64,000 bases of DNA, from positions 96,001 through 160,000 of IMG/VR virus record IMGVR_UViG_3300015606_001334; one strand, 5' to 3'. The stretch comes from a virus. Lineage: Duplodnaviria; Caudoviricetes. The position numbers and the translations under genes were made by a program. The notes below the pieces were generated by a model. It made no database searches, was not told where the DNA came from, and was given only the letters and a program-made list of their open reading frames with translations. How positions within the stretch are numbered: the stretch's first letter is position 1; each line of letters opens with the position of its first letter. Below, in pieces: positions 23,892-60,592 of the stretch.

Positions 23892-23951
23892 TCATTTTAC
23901 TCCAAACTCCTTTAGATTTATTTATAGAATGAGGAACAAAATGTTACCGGG

Positions 23952-24023
23952 TGGGTAATGTGGGGATCGAACCCACGACCCGCGGATTTAGAATCCGCTG
24001 CTCTACCATTGAGCTAATTACCC
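23952..24023 (-). tRNA. amber suppressor tRNA (anticodon CUA), Lys-like body
   Basis: cloverleaf GGGTAAT..GCGGA TTCTAAA TCCGC..GTTCGATC; no encoded CCA. Confidence 0.85.
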
Positions 24024-40233: not shown

Positions 40234-40278
40234 ACAAGCTCAATTCTCTTTAAAGGAGTATTTATCCTTTTGCGATTT

Positions 40279-40481
40279 CATACTTTAGCGTTCTGATGCT
40301 CGCTTTCCTGACTCAAGGATAATGTCCAATCGTCCGCCGTACTAGCGAGATTTCTCCTTGCTTAAGGGAGCAACGGTTTTAAGAGGTTAAGCGGACCTCT
40401 TCTTTGTGCCGTTCTTTTAGATTTGCCTTCAATTGTAATAACATCCGAAGATGCCTGGCTACATCAGAACGCTTAAGTATG
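40279..40481 (-). ncRNA. unknown structured RNA (~200 nt)
   Basis: long terminal stem AGCGTTCTGATG/CATCAGAACGCT; loop GTCCGC complementary to downstream GCGGAC (possible pseudoknot). Confidence 0.6.
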
Positions 40482-40504
40482 AATAGTCAATCATTACAAT
40501 TGAC

Positions 40505-40649
40505 TGGTGGAGCCGACGGGTCTCGAACCACGTACGTCGCAAGGACACCGGTTTTACCTTAGATAACCATTTTCTGTCGGCTTATTTCTAAGCAAAAGTT
40601 TGAAAACGACTTTTTTGACCGGCGCGTCTACCAATTTCGCCACGACTCC
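40505..40649 (-). ncRNA. Leu-type tRNA scaffold with GGTTATC module in the anticodon arm
   Basis: Leu-type D arm and variable arm, T arm, CCA; CCGGT[~65 nt]ACCGG. Confidence 0.75.
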
Positions 40650-40652
40650 ATT

Positions 40653-41346: not shown

Positions 41347-41430
41347 TTTTAACTCCTTGTTATGATTTACTACAAGGAGAATTATATTTCAATTTTCAAT
41401 TTTTGTAAACTGAAATTGAAAATTTGTTTT

Positions 41431-41558
41431 TGGTTGAGGCGGAAGGAATCGAACCTTCTCTAGTCGGATATGAGTCGAGATAACCATCCACGAGCGGCGT
41501 ATCTCTACGCAAAAGTTGCAGGCGATGTTTTCCTGTGCTGCCAGTACACTACGCCTCA
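41431..41558 (-). ncRNA. tRNA(CAT) scaffold with GGTTATC module inserted in the 5' strand of the anticodon stem
   Basis: TGAGGCG/CGCCTCA-ACCA; ...GGATGGTTATC TCGA CTCATAT. Confidence 0.75.
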
Positions 41559-42097
41559 ATTGAACTACAATTATCAAAATGCCATCTCATCATGACATTT
41601 CTTGCACCCTCTTTACCGCAATGAGGACACTTGATCTTTTCCCTGATTTTACCAAGGTTTTTCTTACCACCGGATGAACAATTAGGATGCTGACTAATTT
41701 TCTTTTTCGTTTCCATTGGCATTTCAAATTTTCCATTCGGACCATTTTTAATGCCGCCAATACGAGAAAAATAATCTTCACCGTACTTCTTTTTCATTGT
41801 TTCTTTTCGTTTATGTCCATCTTCATTCCATCCACCTAACGTTTCAGGAATTAGATTTGCCCAGAGTTCTGACTTAACTATGTTATTGTCATCACTAAAC
41901 TGACGGGCAATTCTTGCACATTCTTCGCGATCCTCGTAGGATCCAATAACTTCAGTAGAAACATCGTTACCAAATTCGTTAAGATGCTTACACCAGTTTT
42001 TACCTGATCCACGGTATTTCATTGGATCATGGGTAGTCTTTCCGAAATACTTAAGACCTGTTTTATTATGGGTCTTAACGTAAAGAAAGATCATCAA
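41549..42097 (-). CDS. GIY-YIG-like homing endonuclease
   Basis: LYVKTH..TGLKYFGKT..Y.GSG; C-terminal CPHCGK.G..RWHFDNC. Confidence 0.82.
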   Translation of the reverse strand: MMIFLYVKTHNKTGLKYFGKTTHDPMKYRGSGKNWCKHLNEFGNDVSTEVIGSYEDREECARIARQFSDDNNIVKSELWANLIPETLGGWNEDGHKRKETMKKKYGEDYFSRIGGIKNGPNGKFEMPMETKKKISQHPNCSSGGKKNLGKIREKIKCPHCGKEGARNVMMRWHFDNCSSIEA

Positions 42098-42443: not shown

Positions 42444-42623
42444 TGGTACCCCAAGTAGGATTCGAACCTACGACCTATCGGTTAAATACCGATTGCTCTA
42501 CGTTTTTGGGCTGGCTTTATTACCTACTTTGACGTCATTTTCGGAAACCAAAGACAGCTTAAACGAAAGACTTTGACGAGTTAGCTAATCTCGCCGTTTC
42601 CTTTGCCACTGAGCTATTAGGGT
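42444..42623 (-). ncRNA. Lys(TTT)-like tRNA with ~105-nt insertion in the D loop
   Basis: GCTCAGTGG[insert]TAGAGC; ATCGG TATTTAA CCGAT; T arm; CCA. Confidence 0.7.
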
Positions 42624-42751
42624 TGGTGCCCCGACCCGGGATCGAACCGGGATGACCGAAGTCGACAGATTTTCTTAAGCGGGCTCAGTCACTAAGTTTC
42701 AGAACCCGCTTCGTGAAAGTCTGTTGCGTCTACCAATTTCGCCATCGGGGC
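42624..42751 (-). ncRNA. tRNA-Leu(TAA) with ~43-nt hairpin inserted in the anticodon
   Basis: ACAGA CTT[TCACG..TTAAG]AAAA TCTGT; Leu body, CCA. Confidence 0.75.
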
Positions 42752-43024
42752 ATTAAAAAGCTAAGCTAAGAGTGATAGTGATTTCAATCTTCTTGTGTTC
42801 ACGTGCATCGTCAGGCTTATTCAACTCTTTGTGTTCAATAGCTTTATCAATAACTTCAGAAAGATCCTTACGGTTCTGACCTGATTTTGACTTATCTACC
42901 TTTTCTAGGTTGCCATAAATTTTCATGATTTCCTCTACTACTACTGCTTTTAAAGTAGTATTTATCGGACATAGACAAAAATCAAGAAAAAATAGGTGAA
43001 AAAGTCATTTGTTATCAATTACTT

Positions 43025-49645: not shown

Positions 49646-49735
49646 GGCGGAGGCGGTGAGATTCGAACTCACGGACCTTTTTAGGGATCGGTAGTTTTCA
49701 AGACTACTGCGTTAAACCAGCTCTGCCACGCCTCC
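49645..49735 (-). tRNA. tRNA-Ser(TGA)
   Basis: GTAGT CTTGAAA ACTAC, long variable arm, G73. Confidence 0.92.
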
Positions 49736-50068
49736 ATTTTTACGATTCCTCGACTTGTAAGTACTCAACTGTGAATCACAATTGCTACAGACAAATCTTA
49801 GATTTTCTAATCTATTGTCGTTGTTAACACCGTTGATGTGGCCAAGAATTAATGGCATAGGTTTCCCTTGCCATTCAGGACCAATTCCACAGCATGCGCA
49901 ACGATATTCGATTAACTTTCCATCTAATATTCGACTCTTTACATGATGTCTAGCGAGAGTCGAATTTTCAGAAAAAACTTCTTCATCCGTCTTTCTTATC
50001 GACCGATGATACTCTGTTAATCCTGGTTTCTTTCCTTTATTCCAAGGGACACTTCCTTTTGATGCCAT
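49712..50068 (-). CDS. HNH endonuclease
   Basis: CACCG, HINGVNNDNRLENLRFVCSNC; stop lies inside tRNA-Ser. Confidence 0.85.
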   Translation of the reverse strand: MASKGSVPWNKGKKPGLTEYHRSIRKTDEEVFSENSTLARHHVKSRILDGKLIEYRCACCGIGPEWQGKPMPLILGHINGVNNDNRLENLRFVCSNCDSQLSTYKSRNRKNGGVAELV

Positions 50069-50483: not shown

Positions 50484-50599
50484 GATAAACAAAACTAGTA
50501 ATCGATGAACCTCTTTCGAGGGTGAAGGGCTTGAACCTTCTAACTTGTGGATGATTAGTCCTCTCGTATTATCCGATAACCAATTACTCACGGTTTATC
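50484..50599 (-). ncRNA. GGTTATC-module permuted tRNA mimic (AAT loop), paralog of 32749..32873
   Basis: GGA CTAATCA TCC; GAAGG TTCAAGC CCTTC. Confidence 0.7.
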
Positions 50600-50981
50600 A
50601 ATTACTTCTTCCTTTTCCTCCTTTAGCTGACATATTCCTATGCCATTCTTTGAACTCTTCAGGAGAAAGAGAATTCTTCATTTTTGTTATGTATGAAATT
50701 CGTTTATTCTGACGATAATCATCTCTCAAATTATCTGAGTATGTTCCCCAATACAAATGATTTGGATTTGAGCATTTACCATTTCCACAGCCATGACAAC
50801 AAATAACTTTCTTACCTGTCGGTATTGTGGTTTTAAGATGGTGTGCTAATAACCCTCTAAATTCTACAGAGCTATATCCACCAATTTCAATACAAGGCTC
50901 GTCAAGTTTAAGGTGCTTCTGTCTATCTTCTACAGGAAGCTCAATATACTCAAGAATTTCTACGAAACTGGTAGGAGACAT
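50598..50981 (-). CDS. HNH (His-Cys box-like) homing endonuclease; start uncertain
   Basis: CCHGCGNGKCSNPNHLYWGTYSDNL.D. Confidence 0.75.
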   Translation of the reverse strand: MSPTSFVEILEYIELPVEDRQKHLKLDEPCIEIGGYSSVEFRGLLAHHLKTTIPTGKKVICCHGCGNGKCSNPNHLYWGTYSDNLRDDYRQNKRISYITKMKNSLSPEEFKEWHRNMSAKGGKGRSN

Positions 50982-51043
50982 GGGACTCGAACCCACAACC
51001 TCGACATTAAAAGTGTCTTGCTCTACCATTGAGCTAATCTCCC
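50969..51043 (-). tRNA. tRNA-Lys(TTT)
   Basis: loop CTTTTAA, CCA. Confidence 0.9.
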
Positions 51044-51169: not shown

Positions 51170-51298
51170 CGGTGCAGTCTGAAGGAATCGAACCTCCGTC
51201 TTCGCCTTGTAATGGATAACCATTTTCAAGCGGTTCATTTTCATGAACAAATTCAGAAAACGATGTTTATCGCTGTTCTACCACTGAACTAAGACTGC
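51170..51298 (-). ncRNA. tRNA-Val(TAC) scaffold with GGTTATC module inserted near position 29/30
   Basis: removing the insert restores a CGCC/GGCG stem and ATTACAA loop. Confidence 0.75.
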
Positions 51299-51354: not shown

Positions 51355-51483
51355 GGTGGAGAGTAGAGGATTCGAACCTCTGACCACGTGCTTAACAGGC
51401 AGATAACCAATTTCGGCCGGTTTGAGCAAACAAACAAAGAGTGAAATCGACATTTACGTGCTCTACCACTGAGCTAACTCCCC
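51355..51483 (-). ncRNA. tRNA(GTT) scaffold with GGTTATC module inserted near position 29/30; G3.U70 acceptor
   Basis: removing the insert restores CGTGC CTGTTAA GCACG. Confidence 0.78.
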
Positions 51484-51639: not shown

Positions 51640-51921
51640 ATCGATGAGCTTCATAATCAAACCTACCAACTTTACGGGAAGGAGGGTTGAATGTCTTCCA
51701 GTTGCCTCGCGGCAAGTTGGTTCTTCCAGACTTCTGAAGCTCATTGATAACGATATCAGAGACTTGATCGTTAGTTAAGAGATTTTCACTGAAGCTTGTC
51801 TTTCGACTGCTACGAGCTCCGAGTACTCTTATCTGATTTGGCTTTTCCGAATTGTTAAAGAATCAACTACTTACTGAAGAATTTGAATTGTATCTCATTC
51901 ATCAGCTTTTGTAAACTGCTA

Positions 51922-52103
51922 AATTTGTTTTGTTCTGACTGCTGGACTCGAACCAGCACTACGTTCCTGGCCGCAGCCAGTGCATTACCAGTTATGCTAC
52001 TCGGGGCGGACCCCAAGGTTGGATTCGAACCAACATTTGAACAACCGCAGAATCAAAGATGCGGCGCGTCTACCAATTTCGCCAAGTCAGAACAAAACAA
52101 ATT
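51922..52103 (-). ncRNA. fused double-tRNA RNA
   Basis: two D arms, two T arms, internal closed acceptor CTTGGGG TCCG CCCCGAG, long terminal stem. Confidence 0.7.
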
Positions 52104-52113
52104 GTTAAAGAAC

Positions 52114-52217
52114 AACAACTTAGGTGAGGCGTCTAGGATTCGAACCTAGGAAGTAAACCCTCATTCGTGGATGGCGAACCTGACCCGCCATTATAACCAC
52201 GCCTCAACTAAGTTGTT
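52114..52217 (-). ncRNA. tRNA-like RNA in an extended stem
   Basis: GAGGCGT/ACGCCTC stem, T arm CTAGG TTCGAAT CCTAG, no canonical anticodon arm. Confidence 0.5.
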
Positions 52218-52313
52218 TAAAGATCGTTTGCTGCAAGTGAAGTTGAATTATATCTTCAACTTCAGGTTTTGTAAACTGTTTCTTCAACAAATTTTCAAAA
52301 CCTTTACTACATT

Positions 52314-52399
52314 TGGCGGAGACGGTGGGAATCGAACCCACTGAACCTTTCGGTCCTACACCTTAGCAGGGTGCTGCATTACCGGCCTGCCCCGTCTCC
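52314..52399 (-). tRNA. tRNA-Ser(GCT)
   Basis: GCACC CTGCTAA GGTGT, G73, CCA. Confidence 0.9.
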
Positions 52400-53055
52400 A
52401 ATTTTCTTCCTGCTTTCCAACCTTGATTTTCCCAAGATTGAAGTTCATCTTTCTTTATCTTCTTCGCTTCGGAACCATTGTTTATCCAACAAGTACCAAA
52501 TTGAGAATTCTTTTCACCTCTTACTGCTTCCTTCATCGAAGAACTAATTTTTATCTTAGTTTCCTCTTTATGGGTTTTTCCTGTCCAATCTCCAGAAGGA
52601 ACCTTCCCATACTTTTTCATCTTACCTTCTATGCCACGACGATGCCGCTCTTTTGCGGCCTCTGATCCTTTACTAAATATCTCAGCTCTTTTACTTCCAC
52701 CAGCTGAAGACCTAGCGATTTGAATCCTGTTTCGCTCTACATCATCTGAATTGATATGATCCCAACCACCTTCTCCACCAAACTTCAAGTTCATGCAGAG
52801 CGGGTGTTTCAACATCTCCTCGTTTACTACTTCAGCTTCTCTCTTCTTGAGTTCTTCTCTTGAAGGTAGAAACTCTAAAATCTCAAACTTGTGGTTTTCC
52901 AACCCATATTTCCGGATCGAATAACCTAACCTCTTTCCACTTCCTACATAACCATCTTCCAAGTTATCCGTTGAGTGCATCCCAACGTAGAACTTTTCAT
53001 TCAGAAGATTTGTGGTCCTATAAATGAAGTGGTACTTCTTTTGTTTCCTTGGCAT
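52363..53055 (-). CDS. GIY-YIG (Seg-like) homing endonuclease
   Basis: FIYRTTN..NEKFYVGMHST..DGYVGSG; NUMOD3-like GKTHKEETK; paralog of 36459..37124. Confidence 0.9.
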   Translation of the reverse strand: MPRKQKKYHFIYRTTNLLNEKFYVGMHSTDNLEDGYVGSGKRLGYSIRKYGLENHKFEILEFLPSREELKKREAEVVNEEMLKHPLCMNLKFGGEGGWDHINSDDVERNRIQIARSSAGGSKRAEIFSKGSEAAKERHRRGIEGKMKKYGKVPSGDWTGKTHKEETKIKISSSMKEAVRGEKNSQFGTCWINNGSEAKKIKKDELQSWENQGWKAGRKLETGQAGNAAPC

Positions 53056-53747: not shown

Positions 53748-54314
53748 TCAATACACTTCATGTTTTTTGGAGTCGATATCGAACTCACCGGCAATCGCCT
53801 TGATAGAAGGCTTGTCAACCTTGCTCTTATGGTCGACATACATCTTTACCTTACCGTATTCACCAGTGATGTCAAGATACCAGTCGTGGAACATATCAGA
53901 AAGTTCAATGATGTCCTCAGAAGCCTTCTTCAACCCATCAATAAATTGCTGCTCACTATGAGGCTGGATTTTGGTAGCTCTATAAGTTTTGATCGCGGTA
54001 GGAAGCGTGTTGCCACCACCAATTGCAAAAGCGTCTGATATTGAAAACTGAATTTCGAAGCTTAGTACTTCATCGCCTGAATTTTGACCTGCATTGATTT
54101 GTACTTCAAGCATGATGTCAAGGACTTTGTTTGAAAACACTACGCCTAGGTATGTTTCATCGTCAGGCTCGGCCATGAAGTCAACGATCTTGTAGCCCTT
54201 CTTGTCAAGATCATTTTCAAAGTCGACGATTGCTTCACCGATCTCGTCTCTGAATTTCTCAAGATATTCGAAATCGATCTGTTGTTTGTTCTCTGTTAAT
54301 TGTGTTAGTTTCAT
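53748..54314 (-). CDS. putative internal head protein, paralog 1
   Basis: MKLTQLTE leader; FHDWYLDITGEYGKVK..AIAGEF. Confidence 0.7.
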   Translation of the reverse strand: MKLTQLTENKQQIDFEYLEKFRDEIGEAIVDFENDLDKKGYKIVDFMAEPDDETYLGVVFSNKVLDIMLEVQINAGQNSGDEVLSFEIQFSISDAFAIGGGNTLPTAIKTYRATKIQPHSEQQFIDGLKKASEDIIELSDMFHDWYLDITGEYGKVKMYVDHKSKVDKPSIKAIAGEFDIDSKKHEVY

Positions 54315-60007: not shown

Positions 60008-60029
60008 TTTATTGTTCTTATTATGGAAG

Positions 60030-60402
60030 TGAGGGTGGGGAAATGTTTCTGTTGCCAAGTACAACTTCCCCAAAAACTCCGACAGCTTTACCTATTTAAA
60101 GGATCAAGCAGCCACGCGGTAACTTTCGTCGTTTGCGTTTAACTTTTTTCTTCCACTAACGCAGGTTGCTCTCGAGTCGTTCCAATCTTGTTACTCATGC
60201 CATGTCGAGACCTGTCGACCCCATTAAAAAGAAACCTAGTATGACGATCACGTTCTCTTACTCTTTCGTCATCCTGCCTTGCCTTCTCATAGGTAAGATC
60301 GAAGAACGATCCATCTTACCTCGGGCGACCTCCTTGCGAGAGGACTTGGTTTCTTTTTGGTGGAGTCGAGGGGAATCGAACCCCTTTCCACAACACTTTC
60401 CC
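60030..60402 (-). ncRNA. ssrA: circularly permuted two-piece tmRNA; tag ANDESYRVAA*
   Basis: acceptor piece ..GGGGTTCGATTCCCCTCGACTCCACCA (ends 60358) lies upstream of the coding piece starting GGGGTCG (60222); G3.U70; tag ORF 60104..60136. Confidence 0.88.
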
Positions 60403-60592
60403 AATCAAAGTCTCAGGTATTTCTACCCATACGACTATAAAAACTCTCGGTCATTCTTTCGATCGTCTTCCCATTTATCCCAGTTGTAATGAAAGATGGA
60501 ATAAATCCAACCACCAACACAACCAATGATTGTTACAACAACGAGAAGTTTTTCTACTTGATCAACCATGAAAAGAATTATATCACTATTTA

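What the first reader, a model, noticed from the sequence alone, without database searches (positions are those of the whole stretch)
51922..52103. Covalently fused double tRNA with swapped acceptor strands
Seen on - strand: terminal stem TTCTGACT, Leu-type D arm, hairpin CCGCA..TGCGG, T arm, internal acceptor-like hairpin CTTGGGG TCCG CCCCGAG, second D arm, hairpin CTGG..CCAG, second T arm, then AGTCAGAA. There is no CCA end and no canonical 7-nt anticodon loop. Inference: a bivalent tRNA-elbow mimic, or a precursor of permuted tRNAs.
Basis: seen in the sequence. Interest (0 to 1): 0.78.

Follow-up and report, generated by a model that had tools for sequence, protein, structure and literature searches.

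The report
Two-bodied tRNA look-alike in jumbo phage
A 360-kb phage encodes a 182-base RNA that folds into two complete tRNA bodies locked together, with no anticodon and no free end, so it probably imitates tRNA shape and does not decode; it has not been shown to be expressed and is not kept in the nearest diverged relative.

Summary
On the minus strand, 51922-52103 folds (z = -5.05) into a perfect 19-bp terminal stem closing seven hairpins: a Leu-type D arm, a 5-bp hairpin with a 10-nt loop, a T arm, a 7-bp acceptor-like hairpin, a second D arm, a 5-bp tetraloop hairpin and a second T arm.

The acceptor strands pair only in the swapped register (7/7 and 7/7, against 4/7 and 2/7). Both bodies keep the canonical elbow nucleotides. 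Both caps are UNCG tetraloops, which argues against a decayed tRNA pair.

An equivalent description is a circularly permuted tRNA body nested in the variable region of a Leu-derived tRNA body. The central T arm-hairpin-D arm module belongs to a recurrent phage class with YrlA (Y RNA-like) topology.

The double form is unique in this genome. I found it elsewhere only in one near-identical metagenome contig. A roughly 70-85% identical relative keeps the slot and a long closing duplex but carries different cargo.

Best reading: a non-decoding, two-elbow tRNA mimic. Function and expression are untested.

Earlier notes of this scan report other two-headed tRNA-like RNAs in other jumbo phages, built differently.

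The parts
52085..52103 (-). 5' strand of the 19-bp terminal stem. Its inner 7 nt act as the 5' acceptor strand of the outer body.
   Evidence: I3, 100% complementary; probability 0.94
52066..52082 (-). D arm 1, preceded by U8 G9 at 52083-52084: 3-bp stem and 11-nt loop, class II (Leu) type
   Evidence: 19-23 nt identical to the D arms of the phage's Leu tRNAs and Leu-like chimeras
52045..52064 (-). Hairpin in the anticodon-arm position of the outer body: 5 bp and a 10-nt loop, no canonical anticodon loop. Seen from the inner body it is the 'V' hairpin.
   Evidence: probability 0.93
52035..52044 (-). Linker V1 (10 nt) from the outer body to T arm 1. Its last U can serve as U48 to A15 of D arm 2.
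   Evidence: sequence reading. One of the two L152 substitutions lies here, in an unpaired position.
52018..52034 (-). T arm 1: 5 bp and a canonical 7-nt T loop
52000..52017 (-). Acceptor-like hairpin: 7 bp with a UNCG-type loop UCCG (discriminator U, then CC, then G)
   Evidence: probability 0.99. The same stem sequence occurs in single-module RNAs of other phage contigs, with compensatory changes in L151.
51982..51997 (-). D arm 2, preceded by U8 A9 at 51998-51999: 4-bp stem and 8-nt loop
   Evidence: The second L152 substitution lies in its loop.
51967..51980 (-). Hairpin in the anticodon-arm position of the inner body: 5 bp capped by a C(UGCG)G tetraloop. The stem resembles the anticodon stem of the phage's tRNA-Leu(UAG).
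   Evidence: probability 0.97
51958..51966 (-). Linker V2 (9 nt) from the inner body to T arm 2. Its last U can serve as U48 to A15 of D arm 1.
   Evidence: sequence reading; comparison with Leu variable arms
51941..51957 (-). T arm 2: 5 bp, with the same T-loop sequence as the phage's Leu tRNAs
51922..51940 (-). 3' strand of the terminal stem, with no unpaired discriminator and no CCA
52247..52275 (-). Promoter-like site (11 of 12 consensus matches) that would drive the neighbouring unit and this element. In L152 the element follows this promoter region and its leader with no unit in between.
51887..51915 (-). Next promoter-like site, starting 7 nt after the element. The flank here is conserved in L163.

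Best explanation
The element is a gene for a non-decoding structured RNA made of two complete tRNA-shaped bodies.

- The outer body is Leu-derived: the terminal stem stacked on T arm 2, with D arm 1 and the 10-nt-loop hairpin.
- The inner body is circularly permuted: the acceptor-like hairpin stacked on T arm 1, with D arm 2 and the tetraloop hairpin.
- The two bodies are joined by the 10-nt and 9-nt linkers at their variable-loop positions.

Shown here: the secondary structure, the canonical elbow nucleotides in both bodies, the absence of any anticodon loop or free CCA end, and the stable UNCG caps.

Inferred: it is transcribed from the promoter-like site at 52275 within the tRNA/ncRNA array. 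It is released by a cut in or next to the 19-bp duplex. It then acts by shape, presenting two tRNA elbows and sealed acceptor helices to factors that recognise the tRNA body. Candidates are a phage or host Ro60-type particle, RNase P or the CCA enzyme, tRNA-modifying enzymes, and tRNA-targeting defence nucleases. In that role it would be a decoy or a two-site tether.
For: - Fold and statistics.
- Swapped versus unswapped pairing, 7/7 and 7/7 against 4/7 and 2/7.
- Both bodies match Rfam tRNA model positions 8-63.
- Both caps are UNCG tetraloops, one with a C-G closing pair, which is not what a decaying 7-nt anticodon loop gives.
- No parental tRNA with these acceptor strands exists in the 360-kb genome.
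- The T arm-hairpin-D arm order is proven by crystallography to fold like tRNA in YrlA (bioRxiv 10.1101/312249).
- That module recurs in phage contigs: 22 of 117 pattern hits form perfect 7-9-bp hairpins, with covarying T and D stems.
- The element is intact in a second phage. L152 has 2 substitutions, both unpaired, although its array is otherwise rearranged.
- The closing duplex of the slot is kept as a perfect 19/21-bp helix in L163 although 8 of 19 aligned positions differ.
- L163's cargo is also an anticodon-less tRNA-like body with a 4-nt cap in the anticodon position.
- The neighbouring unit 52114-52217 also looks like a tRNA-like body without an anticodon arm, closed by a long stem.
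Against:
- The double form is not conserved in the only diverged relative, L163. The one other copy, L152, is too similar to show selection: 290 nt at 99.3% identity, with the 3' flank identical.
- No binding partner is identified.
- The array is a recombination-prone mosaic with homing endonuclease ORFs, so a neutral chimera is possible.
- The three-dimensional feasibility of two linked L-shapes is argued from connectivity only.
Confidence: 0.5

Rival explanations
1. Two-piece tRNA-like RNA. RNase P cuts the precursor at the 5' side of the first C of the 3' arm of the 7-bp hairpin. The loop G is trimmed and an A is added to the encoded U-C-C. The result is two RNA strands held together by the two helices, with one genuine CCA acceptor end that might be charged or bound by CCA-reading factors.
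For: - M. smegmatis YrlA, the one YrlA with a 7-bp acceptor-like stem, is cut exactly so by RNase P in vitro and in vivo and gains CA (PMC4201824).
- The loop here reads U-C-C-G.
- Many related phage modules encode NCCA in that loop.
- The phage's own tmRNA is of the permuted, two-piece type.
- The phage encodes a PF01743 nucleotidyltransferase.
Against: - The closest relatives of the module, which share the same stem, have loops UACG, UAUCG and CAUAG without CC.
- UCCG is a stable tetraloop cap.
- The acceptor identity (C1:G72, U73, G5:U68) matches no synthetase rule that I know (own knowledge).
- There is no anticodon.
Confidence: 0.2
2. Neutral chimera. The element is a recent recombination or insertion product between a Leu-type tRNA-derived scaffold and a permuted tRNA-like module, in a fast-evolving cassette array. 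It is tolerated but has no function of its own.
For: - The double form was seen only in two near-identical phages.
- L163 has different cargo in the same slot.
- Units come and go between relatives: unit 52114-52217 is absent from L152 and the endonuclease ORF has moved.
- D arm 1, the tetraloop-hairpin stem and T arm 2 look Leu-derived, while the central module resembles modules of other phages.
Against: - Every helix is perfect.
- All tertiary-contact nucleotides are kept in both bodies.
- Both anticodon loops were replaced, one by a stable tetraloop, not left to decay.
- There is no recognisable parental pair in the genome.
- The 19-bp duplex is kept.
Confidence: 0.22
3. The element is a Y RNA of the phage's own Ro60. 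The terminal stem or flank would bind Ro60, and the two tRNA-like bodies would be effector-binding domains.
For: - The phage encodes a bona fide Ro60: TROVE at 4.6e-40 and the Ro60 vWA domain at 1.6e-56.
- No Y RNA lies next to that gene.
- The element is the best RF02553 match in the genome, at 29.1 bits.
Against: - 29.1 bits is far below the gathering score of 69, and ordinary tandem tRNA pairs score 23-28 bits. Chen et al. warn about exactly this artefact.
- The element lies about 100 kb from rsr, whereas Chen et al. reported only candidates within 4 kb.
- There is no GNCGAAN0-1G motif outside an ordinary Leu D arm.
- The repeated GGUUAUC-helix units in the array, flagged in other first-reader notes, are competing Y-RNA candidates.
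- Complete phages G001 and G006 carry single permuted modules without any TROVE gene.
Confidence: 0.08

Closest known systems
YrlA, the tRNA-like Y RNA of bacteria and mycobacteriophages (Rfam RF02553; Chen et al. 2014, PMC4201824; Wang et al. 2018, bioRxiv 10.1101/312249)
   Same: The central T arm - closed acceptor-like hairpin - UA - D arm order is the same. There is no free CCA and no anticodon. Conserved elbow nucleotides are kept. A 'V' hairpin sits 5' of the T arm. A 7-bp hairpin like that of the RNase P-cleaved M. smegmatis YrlA is present.
   Different: A second complete tRNA body (D arm 1, T arm 2, terminal acceptor-like stem) wraps the module. The anticodon-stem equivalent is a local tetraloop hairpin, not the stem leading to a Ro60 site. 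There is no GNCGAA motif, the element is not near rsr, and the Rfam score is far below threshold.
Single permuted tRNA-like modules in phage tRNA arrays
   Same: The T-hairpin-D core is the same. Four contig groups share an identical acceptor-like stem sequence, and all are closed by a long A/U-rich duplex.
   Different: Those have one body, with their ends at the anticodon side. Ours has two bodies joined at the variable-loop positions.
'Enigmatic' tRNA introns of Lak megaphages, one of which may itself encode a tRNA (Devoto et al. 2019, PMC6784885)
   Same: A tRNA-like unit lies inside a phage tRNA gene.
   Different: There the host tRNA has an anticodon and the insert is read as an intron. 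Here neither body can decode and no excision restores a tRNA.
Circularly permuted tRNA genes of Cyanidioschyzon and two-piece (permuted) tmRNA
   Same: The 3' acceptor strand is encoded upstream of the 5' acceptor strand and joined by a loop. The phage's own tmRNA (60013-60450) is of this type.
   Different: Those mature into a decoding tRNA or a tagging tmRNA. Here there is no anticodon and no tag frame, and the permuted body is embedded in another body.
Two-headed or nested tRNA-like phage RNAs noted earlier in this scan (e1-5392792, e1-5392780, e1-5402508, e1-133249)
   Same: All are jumbo-phage RNAs with two tRNA elbows that cannot decode, and none is catalogued.
   Different: As described, those carry the second body in place of the anticodon loop, and one family keeps valine identity bases. 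In ours the equivalent pairing is about 12 kcal/mol worse than the two-hairpin fold, and no sequence likeness was found.

Membership tests
Canonical tRNA (Rfam RF00005) | 7-bp acceptor stem formed by the 5' and 3' ends of one cloverleaf | tested here: not met
   Within each half only 4/7 and 2/7 pairs form. Pairing is 7/7 only across the halves.
Canonical tRNA (Rfam RF00005) | 5-bp anticodon stem with a 7-nt loop (U33, purine 37) | tested here: not met
   The loops are 10 nt and 4 nt.
Canonical tRNA (Rfam RF00005) | D and T arms with conserved elbow nucleotides | tested here: met
   Both bodies align to model positions 8-63. U8, A14, G18 G19, A21, G53:C61 and the T loop were read in the sequence.
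Canonical tRNA (Rfam RF00005) | Score at or above the gathering threshold (29 bits) | tested here: not met
   26.5 and 22.9 bits
YrlA Y RNA (RF02553) | T arm, closed acceptor-like stem-loop and D arm in that order | tested here: met
YrlA Y RNA (RF02553) | GNCGAAN0-1G Ro60-binding motif near the 5' end (PMC4201824) | tested here: not met
   Only GGCGAA inside D arm 1, followed by A and U, not G. The same D arm occurs in ordinary Leu tRNAs.
YrlA Y RNA (RF02553) | Encoded within about 4 kb of rsr (Ro60) on the same strand | tested here: not met
   rsr is at genome 47685-49292 and the element at genome 147922-148103, on the same strand but about 100 kb away.
YrlA Y RNA (RF02553) | Rfam gathering score (69 bits) | tested here: not met
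   29.1 bits; tandem tRNAs reach 23-28 bits
Circularly permuted tRNA gene | Processing yields a tRNA with a normal anticodon arm | tested here: not met
   Neither body has an anticodon loop.
Circularly permuted tRNA gene | Bulge-helix-bulge motif at the leader/trailer junction | not tested
   The terminal helix is a continuous 19-bp duplex without bulges. No BHB search was run.
Two-headed phage tRNA-like RNAs of earlier scan notes | Second body replaces the anticodon loop of the first | tested here: not met
   Enclosing pairings score -59.2 and -58.6 kcal/mol against -71.7 for two local hairpins, with probability 0.0.
Two-headed phage tRNA-like RNAs of earlier scan notes | Sequence homology to those families | tested here: inconclusive
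   No shared short words outside this genome. Psa21 itself gave only weak hits.

The most novel reading that the evidence does not exclude
A natural RNA built as two complete L-shaped tRNA cores joined at their variable regions works as a bivalent adaptor. It would bring together two tRNA-body-binding factors, or titrate a tRNA-targeting host defence. After RNase P cleavage of the 7-bp hairpin it might also carry a real CCA end. That would be a design principle for tRNA mimicry not described in Rfam or the literature searched.
Probability: 0.2. Interest if true: 0.8.

Novelty: new variant of a known kind. Interest (0 to 1): 0.55.

Why it matters
tRNA mimics such as tmRNA, YrlA and viral tRNA-like structures each copy one tRNA. 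An RNA with two full elbows and sealed acceptor ends would be a new architecture for engaging tRNA-recognising machinery.

It sits in a jumbo-phage array full of other anticodon-less tRNA chimeras. The same phage also encodes Ro60, a CCA-adding-type enzyme, a two-piece tmRNA and a suppressor tRNA.

If the element is functional, it points to a layer of phage-host conflict or RNA quality control that works through tRNA shape and not through decoding. It also offers a natural scaffold for structural study of linked tRNA folds.

Tried and rejected
- **Isolates and bacteria.** blastn of the element against the GenBank phage collection gave no match. The acceptor-hairpin pattern gave nothing in bacterial genomes.
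- **Covariance model R1**. In the genome it found only the element itself plus Leu tRNAs. In about 1.2 Mb of fetched phage loci it gave many moderate hits that were ordinary tandem tRNAs.
- **Custom scan for swapped-acceptor doubles.** It found only ours and L152.
- **Leu D arm plus T-hairpin-D pattern.** Only normal tRNA pairs were found.
- **Slot-flank pattern.** It recovered only the L163 contig.
- **Neighbour protein 53748-54314.** It has no relatives in IMG/VR.
- **Ro60 relatives L161 and L162.** These contigs are too short to reach the array.
- **Alternative enclosing helices.** Both the 'nested in the anticodon loop' pairing and a YrlA-like closing stem were rejected on energy.
- **Y RNA next to rsr.** None was found.
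- **RtcB and RNase III genes.** Neither was found in the phage.
- **DUF7873 lead from earlier notes.** Pfam scans of the ORFs tested, including the ORFs nearest the element and the ORF upstream of the L155 module, returned no such family.
- **Psa21 genome.** No comparable element was found.
- **Bias in the family alignment.** The acceptor-hairpin covariation is biased, because I selected those sequences for hairpin stability. Only the T and D stem covariation and the 22/117 frequency carry weight.

Full report
**Context**

The window is bases 96001-160000 of a 359,550-bp IMG/VR virus record rated complete. It has about 43% G+C. Small genes and about 30 tRNA calls lie on the minus strand, together with a permuted tmRNA. 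The finding lies in the second tRNA array, between a promoter-like site at 52275-52247 and the next at 51915-51887.

**The observation**

A perfect 19-bp terminal stem closes an eight-way junction. The junction holds, in order:
- a class II (Leu-type) D arm;
- a 5-bp hairpin with a 10-nt loop;
- a T arm;
- a 7-bp hairpin capped by UCCG;
- a second D arm;
- a 5-bp hairpin capped by UGCG;
- a second T arm.

The fold is 5 standard deviations better than shuffles. The long helices have probabilities of 0.93-0.99. In the canonical register each half's own acceptor strands pair at only 4/7 and 2/7 positions, against 7/7 and 7/7 across the halves. Rfam recognises each body as tRNA positions 8-63 but not the acceptor stems. 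ARAGORN's two calls are forced.

**Anatomy**

Helical continuity decides which arms belong together.
- T arm 1 runs straight into the 7-bp hairpin, and that hairpin is linked by U-A to D arm 2.
- T arm 2 runs straight into the terminal stem, and that stem is linked by U-G to D arm 1.

So one body is terminal stem + T2 + D1 + the 10-nt-loop hairpin. The other is the 7-bp hairpin + T1 + D2 + the tetraloop hairpin. The two are joined by a 10-nt and a 9-nt linker at the place of the variable loop.

'Swapped acceptor strands' and 'a permuted tRNA body nested in the variable region of another' are therefore the same topology. Each body has U8, A14, A15 with a linker U where U48 would be, G18 G19, A21, G53:C61 and a consensus T loop (read). 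This three-dimensional argument is inference.

Two alternative pairings would enclose the inner body: one nests it in the anticodon loop, the other is a YrlA-like closing stem. Both cost 12-13 kcal/mol and have zero probability.

**Origin**

D arm 1 is identical over 19-23 nt to the D arms of the phage's Leu tRNAs and of a Leu-bodied chimera at 40505-40650. T arm 2 has the Leu-type T loop. The tetraloop hairpin's stem differs by one base from the anticodon stem of tRNA-Leu(UAG).

The central T1-hairpin-D2 module has the acceptor-like stem sequence CUUGGGG/CCCCGAG. That stem also occurs in single-module RNAs of unrelated-looking phage contigs (L150/L154/L155, L153/L156, L054/L157), with two compensatory changes in L151. 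No tRNA in the genome carries either acceptor sequence. The element therefore looks like a Leu-derived scaffold combined with a permuted tRNA-like module, not a fresh fusion of two resident tRNA genes.

**The module class**

A degenerate T arm-(16-22 nt)-D arm pattern hit at least 117 viral contigs. In 22 of them the spacer is a perfect 7-9-bp hairpin. T and D stems covary across them; the hairpin covariation there is biased by my selection.

Most are single bodies closed by a long stem, which is YrlA topology. Many encode NCCA in the hairpin loop and share ACAGCAA...CUUGUU flanks. Two complete phages carrying them have no TROVE gene.

YrlA is known to fold like tRNA. The one YrlA with a 7-bp hairpin is cut by RNase P and gains CA.

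**Conservation of the double form**

The element is unique in the genome. The only other copy is L152, a 1.5-kb metagenome contig. It has two substitutions, both in unpaired positions, in an array that otherwise differs: the neighbouring unit is absent and the endonuclease ORF has moved. The flank is equally identical, so this shows presence, not selection.

L163 comes from a relative with about 70-85% nucleotide identity and clear synteny. It keeps the slot boundaries and a perfect 21-bp closing duplex, although 8 of the 19 aligned stem positions differ. Its cargo is different: a roughly 95-nt hairpin plus one anticodon-less tRNA-like body with a 4-nt cap.

So the conserved theme is a long duplex enclosing a non-decoding tRNA shape. 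The double body is lineage-specific. Other stem-closed units occur in the array.

**Phage toolkit**

The phage encodes a true Ro60, with no Y RNA beside it. It also encodes a PF01743 nucleotidyltransferase and a two-piece tmRNA. No RtcB or RNase III gene was found.

**Verdict**

The structure is real and clearly non-random. It cannot decode. The stable caps and intact elbows favour a selected shape mimic (0.5) over a neutral chimera (0.22). Cleavage into a two-piece CCA-ended RNA is a live alternative (0.2). A Ro60 Y-RNA role is weakly supported (0.08).

I found no Rfam family and no paper describing this topology. The nearest published hint is the Lak phage tRNA intron that may itself encode a tRNA. 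Earlier notes of this scan report other two-headed tRNA-like RNAs in jumbo phages with a different insertion point. I did not verify those.

Noticed in passing
window 51173-51298, 51357-51483, 40505-40650, 42605-42752, 41410-41575 (- strand): These are tRNA bodies interrupted by inserts of about 45-66 nt in the anticodon arm. Several inserts, and several orphan T-arm units (near 50540, 50352, 46052, 32814), share a hairpin motif AACCG...GGTTATC. The inserts are too short for group I introns. Other first-reader notes read the motif as a Y-RNA-like handle.
   Followed up: partly
window 52114-52217 (- strand): A tRNA-like unit with an acceptor stem and a T arm, closed by a 19-bp (95% complementary) leader/trailer stem and with no recognisable anticodon arm. 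It is absent from the near-identical contig L152. The TCTTTAA box occurs on both sides of it in our phage, which suggests cassette gain or loss.
   Followed up: partly
L163:14549-14749 (syntenic slot in a relative of about 70-85% nucleotide identity): The flanks are the same and the closing stem is a perfect 21 bp. The cargo is a roughly 95-nt irregular hairpin plus one anticodon-less tRNA-like body whose anticodon-position hairpin has a UUUU cap.
   Followed up: partly
window 60013-60450 (- strand): A permuted (two-piece) tmRNA with tag ANDESYRVAA, a G3:U70 pair and an intervening segment of about 125 nt. It also passes the alphaproteobacterial tmRNA model, which hints at an alphaproteobacterial host.
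   Followed up: partly
window 23950-24023 (- strand): A tRNA with anticodon CTA (amber suppressor type), called tRNA-Pyl by ARAGORN and scoring 74.8 bits in Rfam.
   Followed up: no
genome 47685-49292 and 94187-94558 (outside the window): The phage encodes a Ro60 orthologue (TROVE plus the Ro60 vWA domain, 535 aa) and a CCA-adding/poly(A) polymerase family enzyme (open frame of 382 aa). No RtcB or RNase III gene was found.
   Followed up: partly
window 40277-40483 and 51640-51748 (- strand): Further ORF-free units closed by 22-bp and 17-bp stems. The first folds with z = -4.45. Neither is tRNA-like.
   Followed up: partly
window 52363-53055, 49712-50068, 50598-51029 (- strand); L152:381-1067: Weak, sub-threshold GIY-YIG, HNH and His-Me endonuclease signatures occur in ORFs inside the tRNA array. 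L152 has a 228-aa ORF with no Pfam match at a different position in its array.
   Followed up: partly
L086, L101, L079, L031, L039, L092, L100, L108, L114 (other phage contigs): Single permuted tRNA-like modules share conserved flanks ACAGCAA...CUUGUU and often an encoded NCCA in the acceptor-hairpin loop. The complete phages G001 (364 kb) and G006 (219 kb) carry them without any TROVE gene.
   Followed up: partly
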